A stretch of DNA of 64,000 nt from Octopus vulgaris. Its lineage: Eukaryota. The position numbers and the translations under genes are program-made. The notes under the pieces are model-generated. The model did no database searches. It saw nothing but the letters and a program-made list of their open reading frames with translations, and had not been told where the DNA came from. The DNA lies in NCBI GenBank assembly GCA_951406725.2, contig OX597819.1:36890001-36954000 (forward strand), written 5' to 3'. Every line of letters begins with the position of its first letter. Position 1 is the first letter of the stretch. Shown piece by piece: positions 1-46,229 of this stretch.

Positions 1-53
1 TTTTGATGAACGTCAGATCTGATAACAAGATTGCTTTACACCATTCAAGGCCT

Positions 54-3000
54 CAGAGATCAAAGAGGGGTGCCGACAGAGATCAAAGAGGGGTGCCGAC
101 AGAGATCAAAGAGGGGTACCGACAGAGATCAAAGAGGGGTGCCGACAGAGATCAAAGAAGGTGTCGACAGAGATCGAAGGGAGTGCCGACAGAGATCAAA
201 GAGGGTGCCGACAGAGATCAAAGAGGTGCCGACAGAGATCAAAGAGGGGTGCCGACAGAGATCAAAGGAGGTCCCGACAGAAATCAAAGAGGGGTGTCGA
301 CAGAGATCAAAGTGGGTGCCGACAGAGATCAAAGAGGGGTGCTGACAAAGATCAAAGGGGGTGTCGACAGAGACCAAAGAGGGGTGCCGACAGAGATCAA
401 AGAGGGGTGCCGACAGAGATCAAAGGGGGTGCCGACAGAGATCAAAGAGGGGTGCCGACAGCAATCAAAGAGGGTGCCGACAGAGATCAAAGAGGGGTGC
501 CGACAGAGATCAAAGAACAGGAATCAAAGAGGGTGCCGACAGAGATCAAAGAGGGGTGCCGACAGAGATCAAAGAGGGGTGCCGACAGAGATCAAAGAAA
601 GGTGCCGACAGAGATCAATGGGGATGCACAGAGATCAAAGGAGTGATGACAGAGATCAAAGGGGGTGCCGACAGAGATCAAAGAGGGTGCCGACAGAGAT
701 CAAAGACGGGTGCCGACAGATATCAAAGGGGGTGTACAGAGATCAAAGGGTTGCCGACAGAGATCAAAGAGGGGTACCGACAGAATTCAAAGAGGGATGC
801 CGACAGAGATCAAAGAGGGGTGCCGACAGAGATCAAAGAGGGGTGCCGACAGAGATCAAAGAGGGATGCAAAGAGATCAAAGGGGGTGCCGTCAGAGATC
901 AAAGGGGTGCCAACAGAGATCAAAAAGGGGTGCCGACAAAGATCAAAGAGGGTGCCAAAAGAGATCAAAGAGGGTACCGACAGAGATCAATGGGGGTGCC
1001 GACAGAAATCAAAGAAAGGTGCCGACAGAGATCAAAGAGGGGTGCCGACAGAGATCAAAGGGGGTGCCGACAGAGACCAAAGAGAGTGTCGACAGAGATC
1101 AAAGAGGGGTGCCGACAGAGATCAAAAAGGGTGCTGACAGAGATCAAAGGGGGTGCCGACAGAGACCAAAGAGGGGTGCTGACAAAGATCAAAGGGGGTG
1201 CCGACAGAGATCAAAGATTGGGTGTCGACAGAGATCAAAGAGGGGTGCCGACAGAGATCAAAGGGGGTGCCGACAGAGATCAAAGAGGGGTGCCGACAGA
1301 GATCAAAGAGGGATGCCGACAGAGATCAAAGAGGGTACCGACAGAGATCAAAGAGGGGTATCGACAGAGATAAAAGAGGGTGCCGACAGAGATCAAAGAG
1401 GGGTACCGACAGAGATCAATGGGGTGCCGAGAGAAATCAAAGAGAGGTGCCGACAGAGATCAAAAAGGGTGCCGAAAGATATAAAAGATATCAAAGAGGG
1501 GTGCCGACATAGTTCAAATAGGGGTGCCGACAGAGATCAAAGAAGGATGCCGACATAGATCAAAGAGGGTGCCGACAGAGATCAATTGGGGTGCCGACAG
1601 AAATCAAAGAGAGGTGCCGACAGAGAGCAAAGGGGTGCCGACAGAGATCAAAGGGGGTGCCGACAGAGACCAAAGAGGGTGCCGACAAAGATCAAAGAGG
1701 GGTGCTGATAGAGATCAAAGGAGGTGCCGCCAGAGATCAAAAAGGGTGCCGAAAGATATAAAATAGATCAAAGAGGGGTGCCGACAGATATCAAAGTGGG
1801 GTGCCGACAGAGATCAAAGGGGGGTGCCGACAGAGATCAAAGAGGGATGCACAAAGATCCAAGAGAGGTGCCGACAGAGATCAAAGAGGGGTGCCGACAG
1901 AGATAAAAGGGGGTGCCGACAGAGACCAAAGAGAGTGTCGACAGAGATCAAAGAGGGGTGCCGACAGAGATCAAAAAGGGTGCTGACAGAGATCAAAGGG
2001 GGTGCCGACAGAGATCAAAGATTGGGTGTCGACAGAGATCACAGAGGGATGCCGACAGAGATCAAAGGGGGTGCCGACAGAGATCAAAGAGGGGTGCCGA
2101 CAGAGATCAAAGAGGGATGCCGACAGAGATCAAAGAGGGTACCGTCAGAGATCAAAGAGGGTATCAACAGAGATAAAAGAGGGTGCCGACAGAGATCAAA
2201 GAGGGGTACCGACAGAGATCAATGGGGGTGCCGACAGAAATCAAAGAGAGGTGCCGACAGAGATCAAAAAGGGTGCCGAAAGATATAAAAGAGATCAAAG
2301 AGGTGTGCCGACAGAGATCAAAAAGGGGTGCCGCCAGAGAGCTAAGAGGGATGCCGACATAGATCAAAGAGGGTACCGACAGAGATCAATTGGGGTGCCG
2401 ACAGAAATCAAAGAGAGGTGCCGACAGAGATCAAAGAGAGGTGCTGACAGAGATCAATGGGGATGCACAGAGATCAAAGGGGTGCTGACAGAGATCAAAA
2501 TGGGTGCCGACAGAGATCAAAGAGGGTGCCGACAGAGATCAAAGACGGGTGCCGACAGAGATCAAAGAGGGGTACCGACAGAATTCAAAGAGGGGTGCCG
2601 ACAGAGATCAAAGAGGGATGCCGACAGAGATCAAAGAGGGGTGCCGACAGAGATCAAAGAGGGATGCACAGAGATCAAAGAGGGATGCAAAGAGATCAAA
2701 GGGGGTGCCGACATAGATCAAAGGGGTGCCGACAGAGATCAAAGAGGGGTGCCGACAGAGATCAGAGAGGGTGCCGAAAGAGATCAAAGAGGGGTATCGA
2801 CAGAGATAAAAGAGGGTGCCGACAGAGATCAAAGAGGGTATCGACAGAGATCAAAGTGGGGTATCGACAGAGATAAAAGAGGGTGCCGACAGAGATCAAA
2901 GAGGGGTACCGACAGTGATCAATGGGGGTGCCGGCAGAAATCAAAGAGAGGTGCCGACAGAGACCAAAGAGGGTGCCGACAAAGATCAAAGAGGGGTGCT

Positions 3001-5421
3001 GATAGAGATCAAAGGAGGTGCCGCCAGAGATCAAAAAGGGTGGCGAAAGATATAAAAGAGATCAAAGAGGGGTGCCGACAGATATCAAAGTGGGGTGCCG
3101 ACAGAGATCAAAGGGGGGTGCCGACAGAGATCAAAGATTGGGTGTCGACAGAGATCAAAGAGGGGTGCCGACAGAGATCAAAGGGGGTGCCGACAGAGAT
3201 CAAAGAGGGGTGCCGACAGAGATCAAAGTGGGATGCCGACAGAGATCAAAGAGGTTACCGACAGAGATCAAAGAGGGGTATCGACAGAGATAAAAGAGGG
3301 TGCCGTCAGAGATCAAAGAGGGGTACCGACAGAGATCAATGGGGGTGCCGACAGAAATCAAAGAGGTGCCGACAGAGATCAAAAAGGGTGCCGAAAGATA
3401 TAAAAGAGATCAAAGAGGGGTGCCGACAGAGTTCAAATAGGGGTGCCGACAGAGATCAAAGAAGGATGCCGACATAGATCAAAGAGGGTGCCGACAGAGA
3501 TCAATTGGGGTGCCGACAGAAATCAAAGAGGGTGCCGACAGAGAGCAAAGGGGTGCCGACAGAGATCAAAGGGGTGCCGACAGAGACCAAAGAGGGTGCC
3601 GACAAAGATCAAAGAGGGGTGCTGATAGAGATCAAAGGAGGTGCCGCCAGAGATCAAAAAGGGTGCCGAAAGATATAAAAGAGATCAAAGAGGGATGCCG
3701 ACAGATATCAAAGTGGGGTGCCGACAGAGATCAAAGAGGGGTGCCGACAGAGATCAAAGGGGGTGCCGACAGAGATCAAAGAGGGGTGCTGACAGAGATC
3801 AAAGAGGGGTGCCGACAGAGATCAAAGAGGGATGCACAAATATCCAAGAGAGGTGCCGACAGAGATCAAAGAGGGGTGCCGACAGAGATCAAAGGGGGGG
3901 CGACAGAGACCAAAGAGAGTGTCGGCAGAGATCAAAGAGGGGTGCCGACAGATATCAAAAAGGGTGCTGACAGAGATCAATGGGGGTGTCGACAGAGACC
4001 AAAGAGGGGTGCTGACAAAGATCAAAGGGGGTGCCGACAGAGATCAAAGATTGGGTGTCGACAGAGATCAAAGAGGGGTGCCGACAGATATCAAAGAGGG
4101 GTGCCGACAGAGATCAAAGAGGGGTGCCGACAGAGATCAAAGAGGGGCGCCGACAGAGATCAAATGGGTGCCGACAGAGATCAAAGAGGGGTGCCGACAG
4201 AGATCAAAGAAGGGTGCCGACAGGAATCAAAGAGGGTGCCGACAGAGATCAAAGAGGGGTGCCGACAGAGATCAAAGATTGGTGCCGACAGAGATCAAAG
4301 GGGGTGCCGACAGAGATCAAAGAGGGTGCCGACAGAGATCAAAGACGGGTGCCGACAAATATCAAAGGGGGTGTACAGAGATCAAAGGGGTGCCGACAGA
4401 GATCAAAGAGGGGTACCGACAGAGATCAAAGAGGGGTGCCGACAGAGATCAAAGAGGGATGCCGACAGAGATCAAAGAGGGATGCACAGAGATCAAAGAG
4501 GGATGCACATAGATCAAAGGGGGTGCCGACAGAGATCAAAGGGGGTGCCGACAGAGATCAAAGAGTGATGCACAGAGATCAAAGGGAGTGTCGACAGAGA
4601 TCAAAAGGGGTGCCGACAGAGATCAAAAAGGGGTGCCGATAGAGATCAAAGAAGGGTGCCGACAAGGATCAAAGAGGGTGACGACAGAGATCAATAGGGT
4701 GCCGACAGAGATGAAAGTGGGTGCCAACGGAGATCAAAGAGGGGTGCCGACAGAGATCAAAGGGGGTGCCGACATAGATCAAAGAGGGGTACCGACAGAG
4801 ATCAAAGGGTGTGCCGACAGAGATCAAAGAGGGGTACCTACAGAGATAAAAGAGGGTGCCGACAGAGATCAAAGAGGGGTACCGACAGAGATCAAAGAGG
4901 GGTGCCGACAGAGATCAAAGAGGGGTGTCGACAGAGATCAAAGAGGGGTGTCGAAAGAGAATAAAGGGGTGCCGACAGAGATCAAAGAGGGGTGCCGACA
5001 GAGATCAAAGACGGGTGCCGACAGAGATCAAACGGGGTGTACAGAGATCAAAGGGGGTACCGACAGAGATCAAAGAGGGATGCCGATAGAGATCAAAGAG
5101 GGGTGTCGACAGAGATCAAAGAGGGATGCACAGAGATCAAAGGGGGTGCCGACAGAGATCAAAGGGGGTGCCGACAGAGATCAAAGAGGGGTGCCGAAAG
5201 AGATCAAAGAGGGTGCCGATAGAGATCAAAGAAGGGTGCCGACAAGGATCAAAGAGGGTGCCGATAGAGATCAATGGGGTGCCGACAGAGATCAAAGGGG
5301 GTGCCGACAGAGATCAAAGAGTGGTGCCGACAGAGATCAAAGGGGGTTCCGACAGAGATCAAAGAGGGGTGCCGACAGAGATCAAAGAGGGGTGCCGAGA
5401 GAGACCAAAGGGTTGCCGAAA
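54..5421. repeat. Tandem satellite/minisatellite array, ~21-23 bp unit, consensus GACAGAGATCAAAGAGGGGTGCC (~230-240 copies)
   Basis: Unit is read directly and repeats continuously with point variants. Copy number is array length divided by unit length. Strongly purine-rich + strand. Confidence 0.97.
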
Positions 5422-5814
5422 GAGCCCGTCTGAGTATTAGCGCGCGTCTACGATGAGTCTACGATTTTAAATATAATTTAACATCATTTTTTATTCCATT
5501 TTAATGCATAATTTTTCGTGTGTCGATGGCGGCGGAGTTGGCGTCCACGCTCAAACACCTGCACCTGTGTTTGCTTCTACCCCTTCTTCCCTCCCTCGTG
5601 AAGCTGTGGGGAAGGGAGTGTAAAGAAATCAACGTCGTAAAGCGTTGTCAAGGAGACCAGCGTTCTTTTAGAACAACGACTTCATGGCTTGAAGACACCA
5701 AAACAGAAATGGCTAAGAAAGCCCGAATTGGCATCTATAAGGGAAGTAACTCTCTAAAAATGCTTATATAGTTATTTCCCTTACAAACCCGAGCAACGCC
5801 GGGCGATACTGCTA

Positions 5815-5815
<1 letters not shown>
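5422..5815 (+). mobile_element. Non-autonomous Helitron, 3' portion
   Basis: Ends in hairpin CCCGAGCAACGCCGGG (5788-5803) followed 8 nt later by CTAG|T (5812-5815), the canonical Helitron 3' terminus. The same hairpin plus CTAG recurs at 33384-33411. Confidence 0.75.
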
Positions 5816-5853
<38 letters not shown>

Positions 5854-5859
5854 TCGGGA

Positions 5860-7308
5860 GTGGCCATGGGAACGCGAATGGGCCCCAACTATGCGAACCT
5901 GTTCGTTGGCTATGTTGAGGCCCAAATATTCTCTAATTTCACTGGTCCCACTCCTGAACTATATGGTCGTTATATTGACGACATTATCGGTGCCACCTCA
6001 CTCTCCCGCGAACATCTAGATTCCTTCCTCTCTTTCGTCCAATCTTTCCATCCAGCCCTCCACTTCACTTCCACTATCTCCAACACCTCTGTCTCCTTCC
6101 TCGACATTTCGGTTAGCATTCTTCACTCCACTCTTACCACCTCCATTCACTACAAACACACAGACTCACACTCATACCTCAACTTCTCTTCCTCCCACCC
6201 AGAACACACCAAGCTTTCAATCCCCTATTCCCAATTCCTCCGTCTACGTAGGCTCTGTAGTGACGACTATGACTTTGAGACTCAGTCTCAACGTATGGCT
6301 CACCACTTCACCCTACGTGGATACCCCCTCACCACTATCCACACCGCCCTTGCCAGAGCACGGTCTGTGGACCGTGTATCTGCTCTCTCTCCCCGAACCC
6401 GCCCTGTAGTCTCCCGCCTCCCTTTTCCCCTCACTTACCACCCCACGACCCTACGTCTCCAACGCACCATTCTTCGAGCTTTCCGTCATCTCCAGTCCGA
6501 CCCGTCCACTTCACACCTCTTCCCTAACCGACCCCTCCCCTCTTTCAAACGAGCCCACAACCTTCGAGACCTTTTGGTCCATAGCTCCTTCCCTGACCCT
6601 ACCTCCCAACCCGGCTCGTTCCCCTGCTCCCGCCCACGTTGCTGCACTTGCCCTTACCTCTCCAACACCACCCGCCTCACTAGCACCCACCATCGACCCT
6701 ATCCCATCATCCACTCCTTCACCTGCACCTCCAGCAATATTATCTATTGCATCTCTTGCTCTCTCTGCAATTCCTTGTACATCGGACAAACGGGACGCCG
6801 CTTGGCTGACCGGTTCGCGGAACACCTTCGTGACATCCACCTTGCGAACGACACACCGGTCTCACGCCATTTCCGCTCCACCGGTCACTCCTTGCAACAC
6901 CTATCTGTGTTCGGTTTGTCCTTACACAGAGGCCATCCGGATTCCCGTTTGCGCCGTGAACAGGAATTAATCTTCTCTCTTCGCTCTTATACGCCATTTG
7001 GTCTCAACTCTCCCCCTCCTCATCTAACCTCCCTCTGCCCCTCCTCACCTATCCTTTCTCCCCCGACCCCTACTTCTTCAGTCCTTCATCCTTTCACCCC
7101 TACTCCCCTTCCCTTCTTCCCTCTTTCTCCCTCCCTCTTCCCCTTCCCTCTGCTCCCTCTCTCCCCTTCTCTCTCCCCCTCTCCCTCTTTCCTCCTTCAT
7201 CCCCCTCCTCCCCTTCCTTCTCCCCCATCCTCTCCTCTTTCCCCTTCTCCTCCTCCTCTTCTTCCCCTCCCCTTCTCTCCCCCCTCTTCTCCTCACTACA
7301 CCACATGA
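5860..7308 (+). CDS. PLE polyprotein C-terminal part: RT (motifs B-E, thumb), Cys linker, GIY-YIG endonuclease
   Basis: GxAMGTRMGPNYANLF and YGRYIDD RT motifs; CSRPRCCTC linker; NIIYCISCSLCNSLYIGQTGRRLADRFAEH GIY-YIG motif. The frame is uninterrupted but 5'-truncated, and the last ~95 aa are low-complexity read-through. Confidence 0.88.
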   Translation: MAMGTRMGPNYANLFVGYVEAQIFSNFTGPTPELYGRYIDDIIGATSLSREHLDSFLSFVQSFHPALHFTSTISNTSVSFLDISVSILHSTLTTSIHYKHTDSHSYLNFSSSHPEHTKLSIPYSQFLRLRRLCSDDYDFETQSQRMAHHFTLRGYPLTTIHTALARARSVDRVSALSPRTRPVVSRLPFPLTYHPTTLRLQRTILRAFRHLQSDPSTSHLFPNRPLPSFKRAHNLRDLLVHSSFPDPTSQPGSFPCSRPRCCTCPYLSNTTRLTSTHHRPYPIIHSFTCTSSNIIYCISCSLCNSLYIGQTGRRLADRFAEHLRDIHLANDTPVSRHFRSTGHSLQHLSVFGLSLHRGHPDSRLRREQELIFSLRSYTPFGLNSPPPHLTSLCPSSPILSPPTPTSSVLHPFTPTPLPFFPLSPSLFPFPLLPLSPSLSPSPSFLLHPPPPLPSPPSSPLSPSPPPLLPLPFSPPSSPHYTT

Positions 7309-7847
7309 CTTTACACATCACATCACATATGATGTGCCATACTAATACACACACCAACTAATACATACTAATACGTACTAATACATACTAGTACATACTA
7401 ATACTTACACCAACCCTATACATACACACGTCCAGACCCCGCATACGCACTTATACTCTCTCTCACACACACACACACACCTATACATACCAATACGTAC
7501 TAATACATACTAATACATACTAATACATACACCAACCCCATACATACGCACGTCCAGACCAATCCTACGCACTAATACTCTCTCATACACACACACACAC
7601 ACACACACACCCTTATACATACTAATACATACACCAACCCTATACATACACACATCAAGACCCCTCCCACGCACTATTAGCTGGTCCCTCAACCCTTTTA
7701 TCAACCCTATTATCTCCCCTTATTTCGCTCTCGCGTCTTATGTTTGATCTTTGACCTCTGGCCGAAATTAGATCGCCATGTTGATTCGTTAGCTACTGCA
7801 CGCATTTTTTTTCTCTCCTTCTTTCTGTGTTTTTCTCTCTCTGTGTA

Positions 7848-7885
7848 TCTTTCTGTTGAAGAGCGTAGGCTCGAAACGTTAAAGA
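7848..7885 (+). ncRNA. Minimal type I hammerhead ribozyme motif in PLE tail
   Basis: UCUUU-CUGUUGA-A-GAGC(GUAG)GCUC-GAAAC-GUU-AAAGA. Stems I and II pair; stem III is the palindrome AACGUU. Confidence 0.7.
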
Positions 7886-8732
7886 CTTGTTTTATTTATA
7901 TTTCCTGAGCGCCATACTAATACAATTGTTCGTTTGTTTTCCACCTGCCTTCGTCTTTTGTTTATTTTCATAAAGCTACCCGTTATATATATATATATAT
8001 ACATATATATACATATATATACATATAAATAAAAGGGGCAGGCAACATATACAATATATATATTGAACTTTACAGAAGTTCCTACCGTTAATCGGTTATA
8101 TTTACATACCGAATTCTACCAGTAAAAAATTGTTGGTTTTTTTTTAGAAAAAACCATTATAGGAATTATTTACTATTATTATTATATTACATATATATAC
8201 ATATACATATGTGTGTGTGTGCGTGTGTGTGTGATTCCTGGTTTTCATACGTTATGTAGGTTAATTTTGAATGTGTCATGTATTATGTGCATATGTGGTA
8301 TCCGCGAAGATGACTAAGATCACTGCTGTATGATGTTAAATCATGAGATAATTGTGAGAAATAATTGTTAGGAAATAAGGAATGTCTGATGAGACAAATA
8401 ACATGCGTTTAGTGCTAACAGTGTCATTGGCCTTCAAGGCATTTTCTGCGTTTTCAATGTTGTTTTCACATTAGAAATCGTTCTACTGTTATGTAATACA
8501 TCGGTGCATTCACAAACCACGTGCTTTCCACGCCAACGCACGTTGACAGGCAGAGGTCGGCTTGTTGTTATTGTTAGTAAGACGATGAGACCGTTATGTT
8601 TGTGTGTGCGCGTGTGCGTGTGTGTGTATGCATGTGTGAATGTGTGGTTCTGTGCCTGTGTCTTTGTGGGCGTGTGTGTCTATGTGTGTGGGCACGTGCA
8701 CATATACTAAATACATGTCCATATATATGTGT

Positions 8733-8769
<37 letters not shown>

Positions 8770-8997
8770 GGCGGCGAGCTGACAGAAACGTTAGAACGCC
8801 GGGCGAAATGCGTAGCCGTATTTCGTCTACCGTTATGTTGTGTGTTCAAATTCCGCCGAGGTCGACTTTGCTTTTCATCCTTTCGGGGTCAGTAAATTAA
8901 GTACCAGTTAGGCACTGGGGTCGATGTAATCGACTTAATCCGTTTGTCTGTCCATGTTTGTCTCCTCTGTGTTTAGCCCTTTGTGGGTAGTAAAGAA
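8770..8997 (+). mobile_element. tRNA-derived SINE family A
   Basis: A box GGCGAGCTGACAGAAACG, B box GTTCAAATTCC, central GTCGACTTTGC(C)TTTCATCCTTTCGGGGTCG; multiple near-identical copies in the window. Confidence 0.85.
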
Positions 8998-9008
8998 AAA
9001 AATATATA

Positions 9009-9070
<62 letters not shown>

Positions 9071-9234
9071 TGTGTGTTTGTGTATGTGAGTAAAAAATTT
9101 GTAGTATAAGATATTAGACCACGTAGTAATCCAATTCAGAGAAGTGTAATGCAGAGTCTCCATGCAGCTGAAATCCAGACGCCCGTTCAATGAAATTACA
9201 TAAGTACGTGTCATGTGCCCGCGTGAGTGTGTGA

Positions 9235-28629: not shown

Positions 28630-30797
28630 TTTTTTCTTCTTTCAAATTTTCTTCCATTTCTTGCCGAGTGTCTTCCCGACTCCTAGGGCAAAGAAACTCA
28701 TAGTGTATATTGGTAGGCCACTAAACCAAACTCAGTAGTTCGTTCATTTTTTTTTTTTTTTAAAGTTAAATTAAAATACATGAGCAGCAACAGTTCTCAC
28801 ATCGACAATGCTCTTCTCAATACGTGTGATGTACCAGTTAAGACAATCGTTTGCACTTCTTGCAGGGATGGTAAGCCAGGGATCATTCTCATATAATTTT
28901 CGGTTCCCTTCTTGATCATTCCTAGTGCTCCTACGATCACTGGTATTGTAACCGCCTTGAGATGCCACATTTTCTCAATTTCAATGAGTAGGTCTTTATA
29001 TTTTCTGAGCTTGTCAAACTCTTTCGCTGAGATATTATGATCACAGGGGATGCTCATGTCGATCAATAAGCAAACTTTATTGTTTTGGTCTTTCACAACA
29101 ATATCTGGTTTATTGGCCTTGATGGTTCGGTCTGTATGTACTGGAAAGTCCCACAGAATGGTTACATTTTCTCCTTCAGTTACAGCCTCAGGGTGGTGAT
29201 TATACCACTTGTCGGCAGTTTTGATATTGTAATGCCGACTTATTAGCCAGTGGAGATATTGGCCAACTCTGTCATGTCTTAATTTATACTCCACTGGTGC
29301 TAAGACTTTACATCCAGAGATTAGGTGGTCCACTGTTTCAATCATGTCGTTGCAGAATCGGCATTTTGGGTCTGCTCCATTTTTCATCACATTGGCCTGG
29401 TAGTTCCGGGTTAATAGGCTTTGGTCTTGAGCAGCCAGGATGAAACCTTCGCTCTCTGCTTTTAGCCCTGAGCTCCGCAGCCACTGATGGGTTTGCTTCT
29501 GGTCAACATCAGCTTGTTTGCTGCGGGTCACATATTTGCCGTGCAGAGGTTTCTCCTCCCACCTATCAGCCAATTGCTCGTGCGCTTTTTTCATTGCCAT
29601 CATTTTCACCTTCTTTGCAACAATAGTTGCCGTACTTCCCTCGGGTTGTTCAGTTTGGGTATCCTGCACGAGATCAATAGCAAATTTTTTGCTTTCCTTG
29701 ATGATAGAATGAAGCTTCTTTCGTCTCTCGTGATTTTCCACGAGCTTTAGCATCCAGTCATTCGATATTTCGAGATATTTGGCCAGTCCAATTGTGGTTG
29801 TTTTGTAAGCTAGTTCAAATTGGATCAGGCCTCGAACTCCTTGGGCTCTGGGAAGGTAAAGGCGATCTACGTCTGCCTTTGGGTGGTGCATCCTATTACA
29901 ACTCAGCAGCTTGCGTATTTTTCTATCTATATTCTTTACTTCACTCATATTCCAGTTCAACACATTGTAGCTATAAGTAACAACTGGAACTGCTAAGGAA
30001 TTTATAGCTAACACCTTGTTACGTGCATTTAGTTCAGATTTCAGGACTGCACGAACTCTCCTATAACATTCCTTCCTGATCTTCTCTTTCAAGCTTGCAT
30101 GCTGAATACCAGAGCCTTCATTTATCCCTAAATATTTGTATGTTTGTTCTTGCTCAAGCTCTCTTATGACTGTGTCAACATCTAACACGACTGAATTTGT
30201 GGTCTTCACTTTCCCTTTCTGGAGAGTGGCCTTGGCACACTTCTCAAGTCCAAACTCCATCCCGATGTCATCGCTGAATGCTTTCACGGTGCGCAATAGG
30301 CCTTCAAGTTCATTATTGTCTTTACCATAAAGTTTTAAGTCATCCATATAAAATAGATGGCTTATTTTTTTATTGGCAATTTTATACCCATACCCTGTTC
30401 TGTTTAATTCACTTGTAAGGGGTATTAGGGCTATGCAGAATATTAAAGGTGAAAGTGAGTCACCTTGAAAAATTCCACAGTTGATGTTTATATTTTCTGA
30501 GGCAAGTACTCCATTAGAGTGGTATAATTGGAGATTCGTATTCCACAACGACATATTGTGCTTCAGGAAGTTTGAAATCACAGGGGAAATTTTGAAGACG
30601 TACAGCGATCTCAAGATCCATGGATGCGGTATACTATCGAAGGCCTTTTTATAGTCAATCCATGCGGTGCTGAGATTTCTGCGCTTGTTGTGACAGTTCT
30701 CAAGGATCATACGATTGATTAGCAGTTGATCTTTGCATCCGTAAGAGCCTCGGCGGCACCCTTTTTGTTCAATGGGGAAAATATCGTTCTTCTCCAT
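28630..30797 (-). mobile_element. Dong/R4-type non-LTR retrotransposon, 5'-truncated, young
   Basis: Intact RT-to-RLE ORF plus 3' UTR, with (TAA)n on the sense strand at both ends. Confidence 0.93.
28797..30797 (-). CDS. Reverse transcriptase + CCHC finger + restriction-like endonuclease (666 aa, N-truncated)
   Basis: WIDYKKAFDS, GIFQGDSLSPL, HLFYMDDLKLY, YKYLG, CRFC...HLISGC, RHD, KPDIV...LIDM...K..KY motifs; no internal stops. Confidence 0.92.
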   Translation of the reverse strand: MEKNDIFPIEQKGCRRGSYGCKDQLLINRMILENCHNKRRNLSTAWIDYKKAFDSIPHPWILRSLYVFKISPVISNFLKHNMSLWNTNLQLYHSNGVLASENININCGIFQGDSLSPLIFCIALIPLTSELNRTGYGYKIANKKISHLFYMDDLKLYGKDNNELEGLLRTVKAFSDDIGMEFGLEKCAKATLQKGKVKTTNSVVLDVDTVIRELEQEQTYKYLGINEGSGIQHASLKEKIRKECYRRVRAVLKSELNARNKVLAINSLAVPVVTYSYNVLNWNMSEVKNIDRKIRKLLSCNRMHHPKADVDRLYLPRAQGVRGLIQFELAYKTTTIGLAKYLEISNDWMLKLVENHERRKKLHSIIKESKKFAIDLVQDTQTEQPEGSTATIVAKKVKMMAMKKAHEQLADRWEEKPLHGKYVTRSKQADVDQKQTHQWLRSSGLKAESEGFILAAQDQSLLTRNYQANVMKNGADPKCRFCNDMIETVDHLISGCKVLAPVEYKLRHDRVGQYLHWLISRHYNIKTADKWYNHHPEAVTEGENVTILWDFPVHTDRTIKANKPDIVVKDQNNKVCLLIDMSIPCDHNISAKEFDKLRKYKDLLIEIEKMWHLKAVTIPVIVGALGMIKKGTENYMRMIPGLPSLQEVQTIVLTGTSHVLRRALSM

Positions 30798-30837
30798 ATT
30801 ATTATTATTATTATTATTATTATCATTATTATTATTA

Positions 30838-30890
<53 letters not shown>

Positions 30891-30903
30891 GTTATTATTA
30901 TTA

Positions 30904-30942
<39 letters not shown>

Positions 30943-30950
30943 CACGAAAT

Positions 30951-31000
30951 TTTGTTAGTGTACAGGTCGCGGTCTCAAAGCGATGAAAATATTTTGGGAA
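30951..31000 (+). ncRNA. Hammerhead-topology motif with swapped G3/C8 core (GUGUACA)
   Basis: UUUGUUA-GUGUACA-G-GUCGC(GGUCUCAAA)GCGAU-GAAA-AUAU-UU-UGGGAAA; the sister copy at 20338-20361 gives better pairing (GCGAC, UGACAAA). Confidence 0.4.
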
Positions 31001-34799: not shown

Positions 34800-35215
34800 G
34801 GTGGTGAGCTGACAGAAACGTTAGCGCACCGGGCGAAATGCTTAGCGGTATTTCGTCTGCCGCCACGTTCTGAGTTCAAATTCCGCCGAGGTCAACTTTG
34901 CCTTTCATCCTTTCGGGGTCGATAAATTAAGTACCAGTTACGCACTGGAGTCGATATAATCGACTTAATCCGTTTGTCTGTCCTTGTTTGTCCCCTCTGT
35001 GTTTAGCCTCTTGTGGGTAGTAAAGAAATAGGTATTTCGTCTGCCGTTACGTTCTGAGTTCAAATTCTGCCGAGGTCGACTTTGCCTTTCATCCTTTCGG
35101 GGTCGATAAATTAAGTACCAGTTACGCACTGGGGTCGATATCATCGACTTAATCTTCTTGTCTGTCGTTTGTTGGTCCCCTCTATGTTTAGCCCCTTGTG
35201 GGCAATAAAGAAATA
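34800..35215 (+). mobile_element. SINE family A tandem dimer
   Basis: Full monomer followed by a head-less second monomer from ~35031; flanking direct repeat AAATATTATTATA. Confidence 0.85.
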
Positions 35216-45446: not shown

Positions 45447-45858
45447 CGGCGAGCTGGCAGATACATTAGCACGCCGGGCGAAATGCGTAGCCGTATTTCG
45501 TCTGCCGTTACGTTCTGGGTTCAAATTCCGCCGAGGTCGACTTTGCCTTTCATTCTTTCGGGGTCGATAAATTAAGTACCAGTTACACATTGGGGTCGAT
45601 GTAATCGACTTAATACATTTGTCTGTCCTTGTTTGTCCCCTCTATGTTTAGCCCCTTGTGGGTAGTAAAGAAATAGGCATTTCGTCTGTCTTTACATTCT
45701 GAGTTCAAATTCCGCCGAGGTCGACTTTGCCTTTCATTCTTTCGGGGTCGATAAATAAGTACCAGTTACACACTGGGGTCGATGTAGTCGACTTAATCCG
45801 TTTGTCTGTCCTTGTTTGTCCCCCTCTATGTTTAGCCCCTTGTGGGTAATAAACAAAT
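45447..45858 (+). mobile_element. SINE family A tandem dimer
   Basis: 13 bp TSD AGGTACGTTATTG at 45434-45446 and 45859-45871 encloses both monomers. Confidence 0.9.
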
Positions 45859-46229
45859 AGGTACGTTATTGTGGGTTTCTTTTTATCTGGAAATACTTCT
45901 GCATAGACATTCTCTGTCTTCCATTGCTTCTAATTCTTTATTTAAACCTTAGGATTATTTTCGTATTCAAAATTTTCATCCTTAGAATTTTCAGGTCTTG
46001 CAAGTTAATTATATTCCCCTTTATTCATATTTTAGCTTGTGCTGTTCTGGTTTGTATTTTCTTGGTCGGTATTCCGCAGTAGACTGGGATTTCGCATTGA
46101 TGAGGCTTTCTTATTTATTTCATTTGTTTTGCTTGCGCTAAATTTATCTTAACGATTCATGTTATCAAATTTTGTGCTTTATGTTTGTAAAGAACATTGT
46201 TTACATTTTGATTACTTACTTTTTTTTTT

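What the first reader, a model, noticed from the sequence alone, without database searches (positions are those of the whole stretch)
54..5421. Satellite built from ~230 bipartite TCF/LEF-like sites, a natural TOPflash-like array
Seen: nearly every unit contains AGATCAAAG (minus strand CTTTGATCT) and GCCGACA, occasionally GCCGCCA (e.g. ~1726, ~3021, ~3644). Many units read AGATCAAAGGGGG. Established: AGATCAAAG(G) is the high-affinity TCF/LEF HMG-box site multimerised in Wnt reporters, and invertebrate TCFs also use a C-clamp to bind a nearby GC-rich helper site (GCCGCCR/RCCG). On the minus strand the reversed helper lies 5-6 bp upstream of the HMG site. Inference: the array could be a Wnt/beta-catenin-responsive mega-enhancer, a TCF/Groucho sink, or a TCF-organised chromatin domain. 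A chance 9-mer match in one ancestral unit, later amplified, is a real alternative.
Basis: partly seen in the sequence, partly recalled or inferred. Interest (0 to 1): 0.75.

Follow-up and report, generated by a model that had tools for sequence, protein, structure and literature searches.

The report
Transposon carrying a Wnt-site satellite
This 5.4-kb repeat is one copy of a genome-wide satellite whose unit matches the binding site of the Wnt-pathway protein TCF; here it sits inside a Helitron-type transposon found at 15 places, and the mutations that spread through the arrays avoid the site, which suggests TCF binding likely shapes the repeat, though binding and any effect on genes are untested.

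Summary
The array is real: 239 units of 22-23 bp, 157 with the exact 9-bp TCF word (not ~230), 101 with the paired helper word. It is not a locus-specific enhancer. It is cargo of a 7.06-kb non-autonomous Helitron present at 15 places (3 on this contig, 12 on another), each with its own flanks, in a stretch where only transposon domains were found. The unit belongs to a much larger dispersed satellite family holding at least 9,235 of the genome's 44,477 exact TCF words. Across 50 loci, rare variants fall evenly along the unit, but variants that rise to high frequency avoid exactly the TCF word (1 of 18 types, 5.8 expected); the helper is not protected. The host encodes a C-clamp TCF. Best reading: a TCF-binding satellite whose site is kept by binding-linked amplification or retention, now spread further by a Helitron. 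Binding, chromatin state and Wnt response are untested. The scan found this satellite family before on other DNA of this genome (five notes); the Helitron carrier is what this window adds.

The parts
1..53 (+). End of the Helitron's 1.3-kb head. The element begins 1,241 bp before the window (G000:C6:36888760). Head = a short non-autonomous Helitron, the 5' part of a second one, then a captured SINE-like plus single-copy fragment that ends at window base 53.
   Evidence: The captured fragment matches an array-free locus, C14:65.44 Mb (L044), at 94-95%. SINE label is recalled, from no call.
54..5424 (+). Minisatellite array, 239 units of 22-23 bp; unit positions 4-12 are the TCF HMG word, 13-18 a variable purine spacer, 19-23 plus 1-2 the helper-like word.
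5425..5815 (+). 3' part of an abundant non-autonomous Helitron family (its first ~125 bp missing), joined to the array over 3 bp of shared sequence; supplies the element's 3' end here and in the sister copy 87 kb upstream.
   Evidence: 1,088 candidates, 40 scored at 98-100%; 18 of 18 other fetched copies lack the array.
5788..5815 (+). Helitron 3' terminus: 16-bp hairpin at 5788-5803 and terminal tetranucleotide at 5812-5815, followed by target T at 5816.
   Evidence: Fold (-5.8 kcal/mol, z -1.8, weak on its own); same terminus followed by T in 15 of 15 copies with different flanks.
5816..7000 (+). Flank, not part of the element: TA microsatellite and a Penelope-like retroelement fragment.
   Evidence: Differs from the flank of every sister copy. 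Penelope label is by eye and recall; Pfam gave no hit for this ORF.

Best explanation
The array is one member of a dispersed 22-23-bp satellite family whose unit matches a strong TCF site, and it sits inside a composite non-autonomous Helitron found at 15 places, which likely captured it by reading past a weakened internal stop and then copied it around; the site is likely kept intact because a bound protein, most likely the host's C-clamp TCF, favours the amplification or retention of units that carry it. Shown: the family, the 15 element copies with Helitron ends and separate flanks, the array-free donor of the head, the deficit of high-frequency variants in the HMG word, the host TCF exons. 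Inferred: capture by read-through, recent activity (heads 96.5-98.9% alike), TCF occupancy, and the link from binding to amplification (for example open, TCF-bent chromatin in Wnt-active germline or stem cells raising conversion and unequal exchange). The array would therefore act as a TCF/Groucho or TCF/beta-catenin docking platform wherever it lands, without being an enhancer evolved for a gene at this locus.
For: Helitron: 17 matches to the head-array junction = 15 full elements, one internal partial repeat, one array-free donor; 15 of 15 end hairpin-CTRR then T, 10 of 15 begin A then TC, 5 blur into TA runs; arrays 1.2-5.4 kb; 8 of 9 aligned heads carry a stem change in the internal terminator. 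Family: 9,235 adjacent HMG-word pairs at period 22-23 against 2 for the control. Constraint: discovery set 37 loci, 5,980 units: 0 of 13 substitution types at 15% or more fall in positions 4-12, 4.5 expected, P about 0.001, and that window is the lowest of 23; 13 further loci, 2,148 units: 1 of 14, 4.1 expected, P 0.03; pooled 1 of 18, 5.8 expected, P 0.003; singletons (13-34 per position) and low-frequency variants show no such deficit. Fetched loci hold 46% of HMG-free pairs but 28% of HMG pairs, so unseen arrays keep the HMG word more, not less. Host TCF: HMG-end exon and two C-clamp exons in order on C6, 42.73-42.76 Mb. The helper word fits the worm consensus GCCRAnW fully and the 23-bp unit has the spacing of the POPHHOP reporter unit (PMC3916239); AK0-6 pairs are the enriched class in fly TCF peaks (PMC4154663). 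6 of 9 other satellites beside family arrays match a signalling-factor motif, 0 of 9 control repeats do.
Against: No binding, accessibility or reporter data. The variant types are few and shared by descent; the second set added only 3 new types at 10%, one of them inside the HMG word (G5C, allowed by the element consensus), and several loci are neighbours or duplicates, so the P values overstate independence. Most arrays were found with patterns containing the HMG word. The helper is not protected although a C-clamp TCF should prefer it. A third of the window's units have a broken site. The spacer is a G-rich run where slippage and AT-biased change could raise variants without selection. The motif list for neighbouring satellites was recalled and written after the units were seen, and the controls were mostly low-complexity. 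No autonomous Helitron partner was searched for, and no tree or date of the copies was computed.
Confidence: 0.5

Rival explanations
1. Chance motif in a neutral satellite: the founder unit happened to contain a TCF word, and the quiet core reflects mutation and slippage mechanics (G-run slippage, CpG decay, AT bias), not protein binding. The Helitron is an ordinary carrier.
For: 0.76% of same-composition shuffles hold a Wnt element, and a large genome has many repeat families; A/T positions vary less than G/C positions everywhere in the unit; the helper decays; Helitrons often carry satellite arrays (PMC12628747); transposon-only neighbourhood.
Against: The deficit holds under nulls matched for reference and new base; low-frequency variants are as common in the HMG word as elsewhere; the quiet window coincides with the site named beforehand; neighbouring satellites also spell motifs.
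Confidence: 0.22
2. Host-selected regulatory DNA: the family as a whole is kept by organism-level selection as Wnt-responsive enhancers or as a sink that sets free TCF or beta-catenin levels, like Human Satellite 3 for TEAD; Helitron copies add new responsive sites.
For: At least 21% of all exact TCF words in the genome (9,235 of 44,477; about 30% by extrapolation) lie in this family; precedent in PMC11526998 and PMC6927752; constraint on the HMG word.
Against: Selection on one unit among many thousands is weak; array length varies 4-fold among near-identical element copies; no host gene domain among 144 ORFs tested near this copy; only very close relatives could be checked.
Confidence: 0.15
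3. Another protein binds the core: a SOX-type or other HMG protein, a nuclear receptor or one of the many cephalopod C2H2 zinc-finger proteins (families recalled), acting as a satellite silencer or stabiliser.
For: The helper, the TCF-specific part, is not protected; dense motif clusters in tandem repeats can recruit repression (PMC13373173 abstract).
Against: The protected window equals the 9-bp TCF consensus (PMC3916239); common changes at flanking positions 3 and 13 (G3A, G3T, A13G, loss of A13) mostly move toward the 11-bp TCF optimum, with A13T in one locus the exception.
Confidence: 0.08
4. Element-level selection: the Helitron that captured the array spreads better because TCF opens it in Wnt-active germline cells.
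For: 15 young copies; the reporter-like variant lacking A13 makes up 18-35% of units in all 16 Helitron-borne arrays.
Against: The constraint is already present in arrays outside this element; the array-free family that gave the 3' end is far more numerous; the variant is one inherited event.
Confidence: 0.05

Closest known systems
Helitron-acquired heat shock elements in Caenorhabditis (PMC6927752; search listing and passages read)
   Same: Dense tandem binding sites of one signal-regulated factor carried inside Helitrons and spread through the genome.
   Different: There binding and gene rewiring were shown; here the factor is TCF, binding is untested, and the satellite is far larger outside the Helitron than in it, so the element is a late carrier.
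Human Satellite 3 as a TEAD/multi-factor platform (PMC11526998; abstract and Discussion read)
   Same: Satellite DNA that spells signalling-factor motifs in bulk and could gather factor and co-activator.
   Different: HSat3 forms megabase blocks and binding is shown; this family is many kilobase-scale dispersed arrays with a full 9-bp site per unit and a site-avoiding variant spectrum.
Satellite arrays inside Helitron/Helentron elements, e.g. oyster Cg170 (PMC12628747; passages read)
   Same: The same array type found both inside Helitrons and standing alone, with variable length and mixed array types.
   Different: Those passages name no transcription-factor site in the monomers.
Synthetic Wnt reporters TOPFLASH/POPTOP and the HMG-Helper reporter POPHHOP (PMC3916239 passages; PMC4154663 abstract, sections 7, 10, 14 and passages)
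   Same: Head-to-tail HMG sites; the 23-bp unit has the reporter's 5-bp spacing between site and helper.
   Different: Natural, about 240 units rather than 4-7, no promoter shown, two thirds of sites intact, helper of worm type rather than fly type. The paper states such dense perfect clusters are not found in endogenous Wnt elements.
MORC3-repressed tandem-repeat enhancers (PMC13373173; abstract and outline only)
   Same: Tandem repeats with dozens of homotypic factor motifs that may be silent but potent.
   Different: Single-locus mammalian repeats with tested function; not transposon-borne by the abstract.

Membership tests
Non-autonomous Helitron (features recalled; capture and 3' terminator as in PMC12628747 passages) | 5'-TC start, inserted after A | tested here: met
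   10 of 15 copies, this one included; 5 of 15 blurred by TA runs.
Non-autonomous Helitron | 3' hairpin then CTRR, followed by target T, no target duplication | tested here: met
   15 of 15 copies; hairpin 5788-5803; no duplication seen in the printed flanks.
Non-autonomous Helitron | Dispersed copies with the same ends and unrelated flanks | tested here: met
   15 copies on two contigs, heads 96.5-98.9% alike apart from one hit diluted by flank microsatellite.
Non-autonomous Helitron | An autonomous Rep-helicase partner with matching ends | not tested
   No search made.
Wnt-responsive cis-regulatory module | HMG site matching the TCF consensus | tested here: met
   159 element matches, 157 exact 9-mers in 239 units; consensus from PMC4267635 and PMC3916239.
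Wnt-responsive cis-regulatory module | Helper site in a working orientation and spacing | tested here: inconclusive
   Worm-type helper in 143 units at 4-5 bp, fly-type in 4; orientation class inferred from text, the figure was not seen; helper not conserved across loci.
Wnt-responsive cis-regulatory module | Host TCF with HMG box and C-clamp | tested here: met
   Three exons in order on C6; found with recalled motifs; the N-terminal Pfam search rang nowhere.
Wnt-responsive cis-regulatory module | TCF occupancy and Wnt-dependent activation of a target gene | not testable with these tools
   No ChIP, ATAC or reporter data; no host gene domain among 144 ORFs tested nearby, which does not exclude small exons.
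Satellite transcription-factor platform (HSat3 type) | Bulk copies of a factor motif in tandem repeats | tested here: met
   9,235 adjacent pairs genome-wide.
Satellite transcription-factor platform (HSat3 type) | Factor and co-activator shown on the arrays in cells | not testable with these tools
   Needs imaging or CUT&RUN.

The most novel reading that the evidence does not exclude
The octopus-type genome breeds satellites out of signalling-factor sites: TCF binding itself selects which repeat units multiply, the resulting arrays hold a fifth to a third of all perfect TCF words and gather TCF and beta-catenin, and a young Helitron has picked up one such array and is now scattering ready-made 50-240-site Wnt response modules along chromosomes, a Wnt counterpart of the nematode heat-shock Helitrons.
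Probability: 0.3. Interest if true: 0.85.

Novelty: new variant of a known kind. Interest (0 to 1): 0.56.

Why it matters
If binding is confirmed, a conserved developmental transcription factor would be steering satellite evolution at the level of single repeat units, and a transposon would be moving very large Wnt-site clusters, which the TCF literature says do not occur naturally (PMC3916239). The 15 near-identical insertions with arrays of 56-239 units form a natural dose series for asking whether such arrays activate, silence or merely soak up factor, and presence-absence between individuals would make the effect on neighbouring genes directly testable.

Tried and rejected
Array as the standard internal repeat of the abundant Helitron family: rejected, 18 of 18 other copies lack it. 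Reporter-plasmid contamination or assembly artefact: rejected, units are diverged, copies sit in separate genomic flanks, and contigs of four public runs hold the satellite and the head, two of them bridging head and array in the listed pieces. Coding repeat: unlikely, mixed 21-24-bp units. One shared carrier for all stand-alone arrays: not found; only small groups share flanks. TCF gene by Pfam PF08347: nothing rang. Expression: no RNA holder listed. Deep conservation: labels A-D differ by only 1-2 letters plus small gaps in about 140 bp of head, so they are too close to test it. Insertion polymorphism at this site: one contig in 1 of 4 runs leaves the 5' flank into other sequence that I did not find by eye in window 6960-9100; inconclusive. 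Loci L100 and L101 had no array, as the 2 control hits predicted; L087 (32 units) and other loci under 40 units were left out of the variant test; one script mis-parsed the second array of L040, corrected. Literature searches listed no paper on this octopus family; the library lacks most subscription papers, and no supplements were read (repeat libraries in those of PMC13282606 could name the element). A tree and date of the Helitron copies were not computed.
Full report
Observation. The window opens with one tandem array at 54-5424, period 23, 237 copies by TRF, 239 units by alignment. The exact 9-bp TCF word named in the finding occurs 157 times, the helper word 143 times, the perfect fly helper 4 times and the reporter-like G-run form 27 times; 101 site-helper pairs stand against 0 in shuffles. 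The title's ~230 sites is thus the unit count; two thirds of units have an intact site.

Setting. The window is G000:C6:36890001-36954000 of a 2.8-Gb assembly. An octopus is inferred from size (PMC13282606 passages give 2.8 Gb for O. vulgaris and 8 recently active Helitron families), from recalled SINE look and from earlier scan notes; no tool named it. Of 266 long ORFs in about 187 kb around the array, 144 were scanned: hits were reverse transcriptase, zf-RVT, GIY-YIG, zf-BED and one DUF. Small host exons are not excluded.

The carrier. The 391 bp after the array are the 3' part of an abundant repeat (1,088 candidates, 40 scored at 98-100%) ending in a hairpin and CTRR; 18 other copies fetched have their own 5' end and no array. 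A search with the single-copy stretch before the array gave 17 matches: 15 elements with the same 1.3-kb head and an array (3 on C6, 12 on C8, 11 of them within 54-78 Mb), one partial internal repeat in L040, and one array-free locus on C14 that matches the last 560 bp of the head at 95% and then goes on in other sequence, the likely donor. All 15 end in the Helitron terminus followed by T with unrelated flanks; 10 begin with TC after A. Thirteen have a 40-bp terminus right after the array; this copy and its inverted sister 87 kb upstream (L012, 98.9% in the head, 99.3% in the tail) have the longer tail. This copy spans 7,056 bp from 1,241 bp before the window to 5815. Heads are 96.5-98.9% alike, arrays 1.2-5.4 kb. 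In 8 of 9 aligned heads the internal terminator hairpin has a stem change, which fits capture by read-through (mechanism from PMC12628747 passages, and recall). No tree or date was computed.

The family. A spacer variant led to arrays on many contigs, often near their ends. Genome-wide there are 9,235 adjacent site pairs at period 22-23 (control 2) and 2,637 pairs of the rest of the unit with the site left free. Exact TCF words number 44,477, so at least 21% lie in the family, about 30% by extrapolation from the fetched arrays. The Helitron carries a small minority of it.

Is the site constrained? Per-position rates in the Helitron-borne arrays alone mostly track base identity. Across loci the pattern is sharper. 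In 37 loci of 40 units or more (5,980 units), distinct substitutions reaching 10%, 15% and 25% of a locus fell in positions 4-12 in 3 of 27, 0 of 13 and 0 of 10 cases, against 8.7, 4.5 and 3.0 expected under a null matched for reference and new base (P 0.0005, 0.001, 0.018); at 15% positions 4-12 are the lowest of 23 windows. Thirteen further loci (2,148 units) gave 2 of 20, 1 of 14 and 0 of 9 (P 0.025, 0.032, 0.048); pooled 4 of 30, 1 of 18, 0 of 13. Singletons and variants under 5% show no deficit. Against: types are shared by descent, the second set added only 3 new types, several loci are neighbours, and most arrays were found with the site in the pattern. Two checks limit the last worry: all 8 arrays listed by the site-free pattern on C1 and most of C2 keep the site in at least half of their units in most segments and as consensus in all, and fetched loci hold 46% of site-free pairs but 28% of site pairs. 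The helper is not spared: G19A in 23, C20T in 14, C21T in 6 of 50 loci; G19A keeps the short RCCG helper (PMC4267635 passages), the other two break it.

Could TCF bind? The host has exons for the end of a TCF HMG box and for a complete C-clamp, in order on C6 about 5.8 Mb away (found with recalled motifs). The helper word fits the C. elegans consensus GCCRAnW, and the 23-bp unit has the spacing of the POPHHOP reporter (PMC3916239). AK6 is the best-bound geometry and AK0-6 the enriched class in fly TCF peaks (PMC4154663); my assignment of the unit to AK5/AK4 is inferred from text. Binding in vitro is therefore likely; binding in vivo is unknown.

Wider pattern. Stand-alone arrays abut or interleave with other minisatellites: 9-bp and 59-bp units with TEAD-like, 10-bp with Grainyhead-like, 52-bp with STAT/NF-kB/ETS-like and 34-bp with CRE-like words (motif names recalled). 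Six of 9 such families match a 20-motif list, with shuffle chances of 0-17% each, against 0 of 9 repeats in 554 kb of control loci. The list was written after seeing the units and the controls are weak. None of these partners is in this Helitron. Five earlier scan notes describe the same family elsewhere in this genome; they are not independent support, and as displayed none names a Helitron carrier.

Other runs. Four organism labels hold the satellite and the head nearly unchanged, so the element predates their split or they are one species; deep conservation could not be tested.

Verdict. A real, motif-constrained satellite riding in a young Helitron. Best explanation (0.5): binding-linked amplification or retention, most likely by TCF, giving a portable docking platform rather than an enhancer for a gene here. 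Rivals: neutral chance motif (0.22), host-selected platform or enhancer (0.15), another binder (0.08), element-level benefit (0.05). It works like the nematode heat-shock Helitrons and like HSat3; it is a member of the non-autonomous Helitrons by the three structural tests run, and not shown to be a Wnt-responsive module. Five literature searches listed no description of the family. New variant of a known kind; interest 0.56.

Noticed in passing
L098 (G000:C15:40684000-40693999): A 10-kb mosaic interleaving TCF-type units with TEAD-like 9-bp, Grainyhead-like 10-bp and STAT-like 52-bp satellites (motif names recalled).
   Followed up: partly
L097:5868-9553: 59-bp satellite whose most conserved stretch is the TEAD-like word (95-100% against about 90% elsewhere).
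   Followed up: partly
L046, L069, L073: Three loci on different contigs share a block of TCF-type array, 9-bp satellite and about 560 bp of other sequence (90-96%), so a second carrier or duplication moved arrays too.
   Followed up: partly
L053, L056, L062, L090, L094: Family arrays with internal inversions (head-to-head blocks), some embedded in other satellites.
   Followed up: no
L040:4700-4910: A Helitron copy with a partial head-to-tail repeat: a cut terminus runs back into the end of the head over a few shared bases, as rolling-circle or recombination products do.
   Followed up: partly
G000:C6:42728000-42758000 (L047, L049, L050, L052), minus strand: Exons of the host TCF/pangolin gene with HMG end and a C-clamp split by an intron.
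   Followed up: partly
window 28800-30974 (-): 725-codon open frame with a reverse transcriptase domain, a LINE-type fragment.
   Followed up: no
window 57226-59405: Long degenerate trinucleotide tracts with strong strand skew; no Pfam hit in the one ORF tested there.
   Followed up: no
window 34847-35215 and 45495-45861: Two tandem pairs of a 184-bp SINE-like repeat (label recalled).
   Followed up: no
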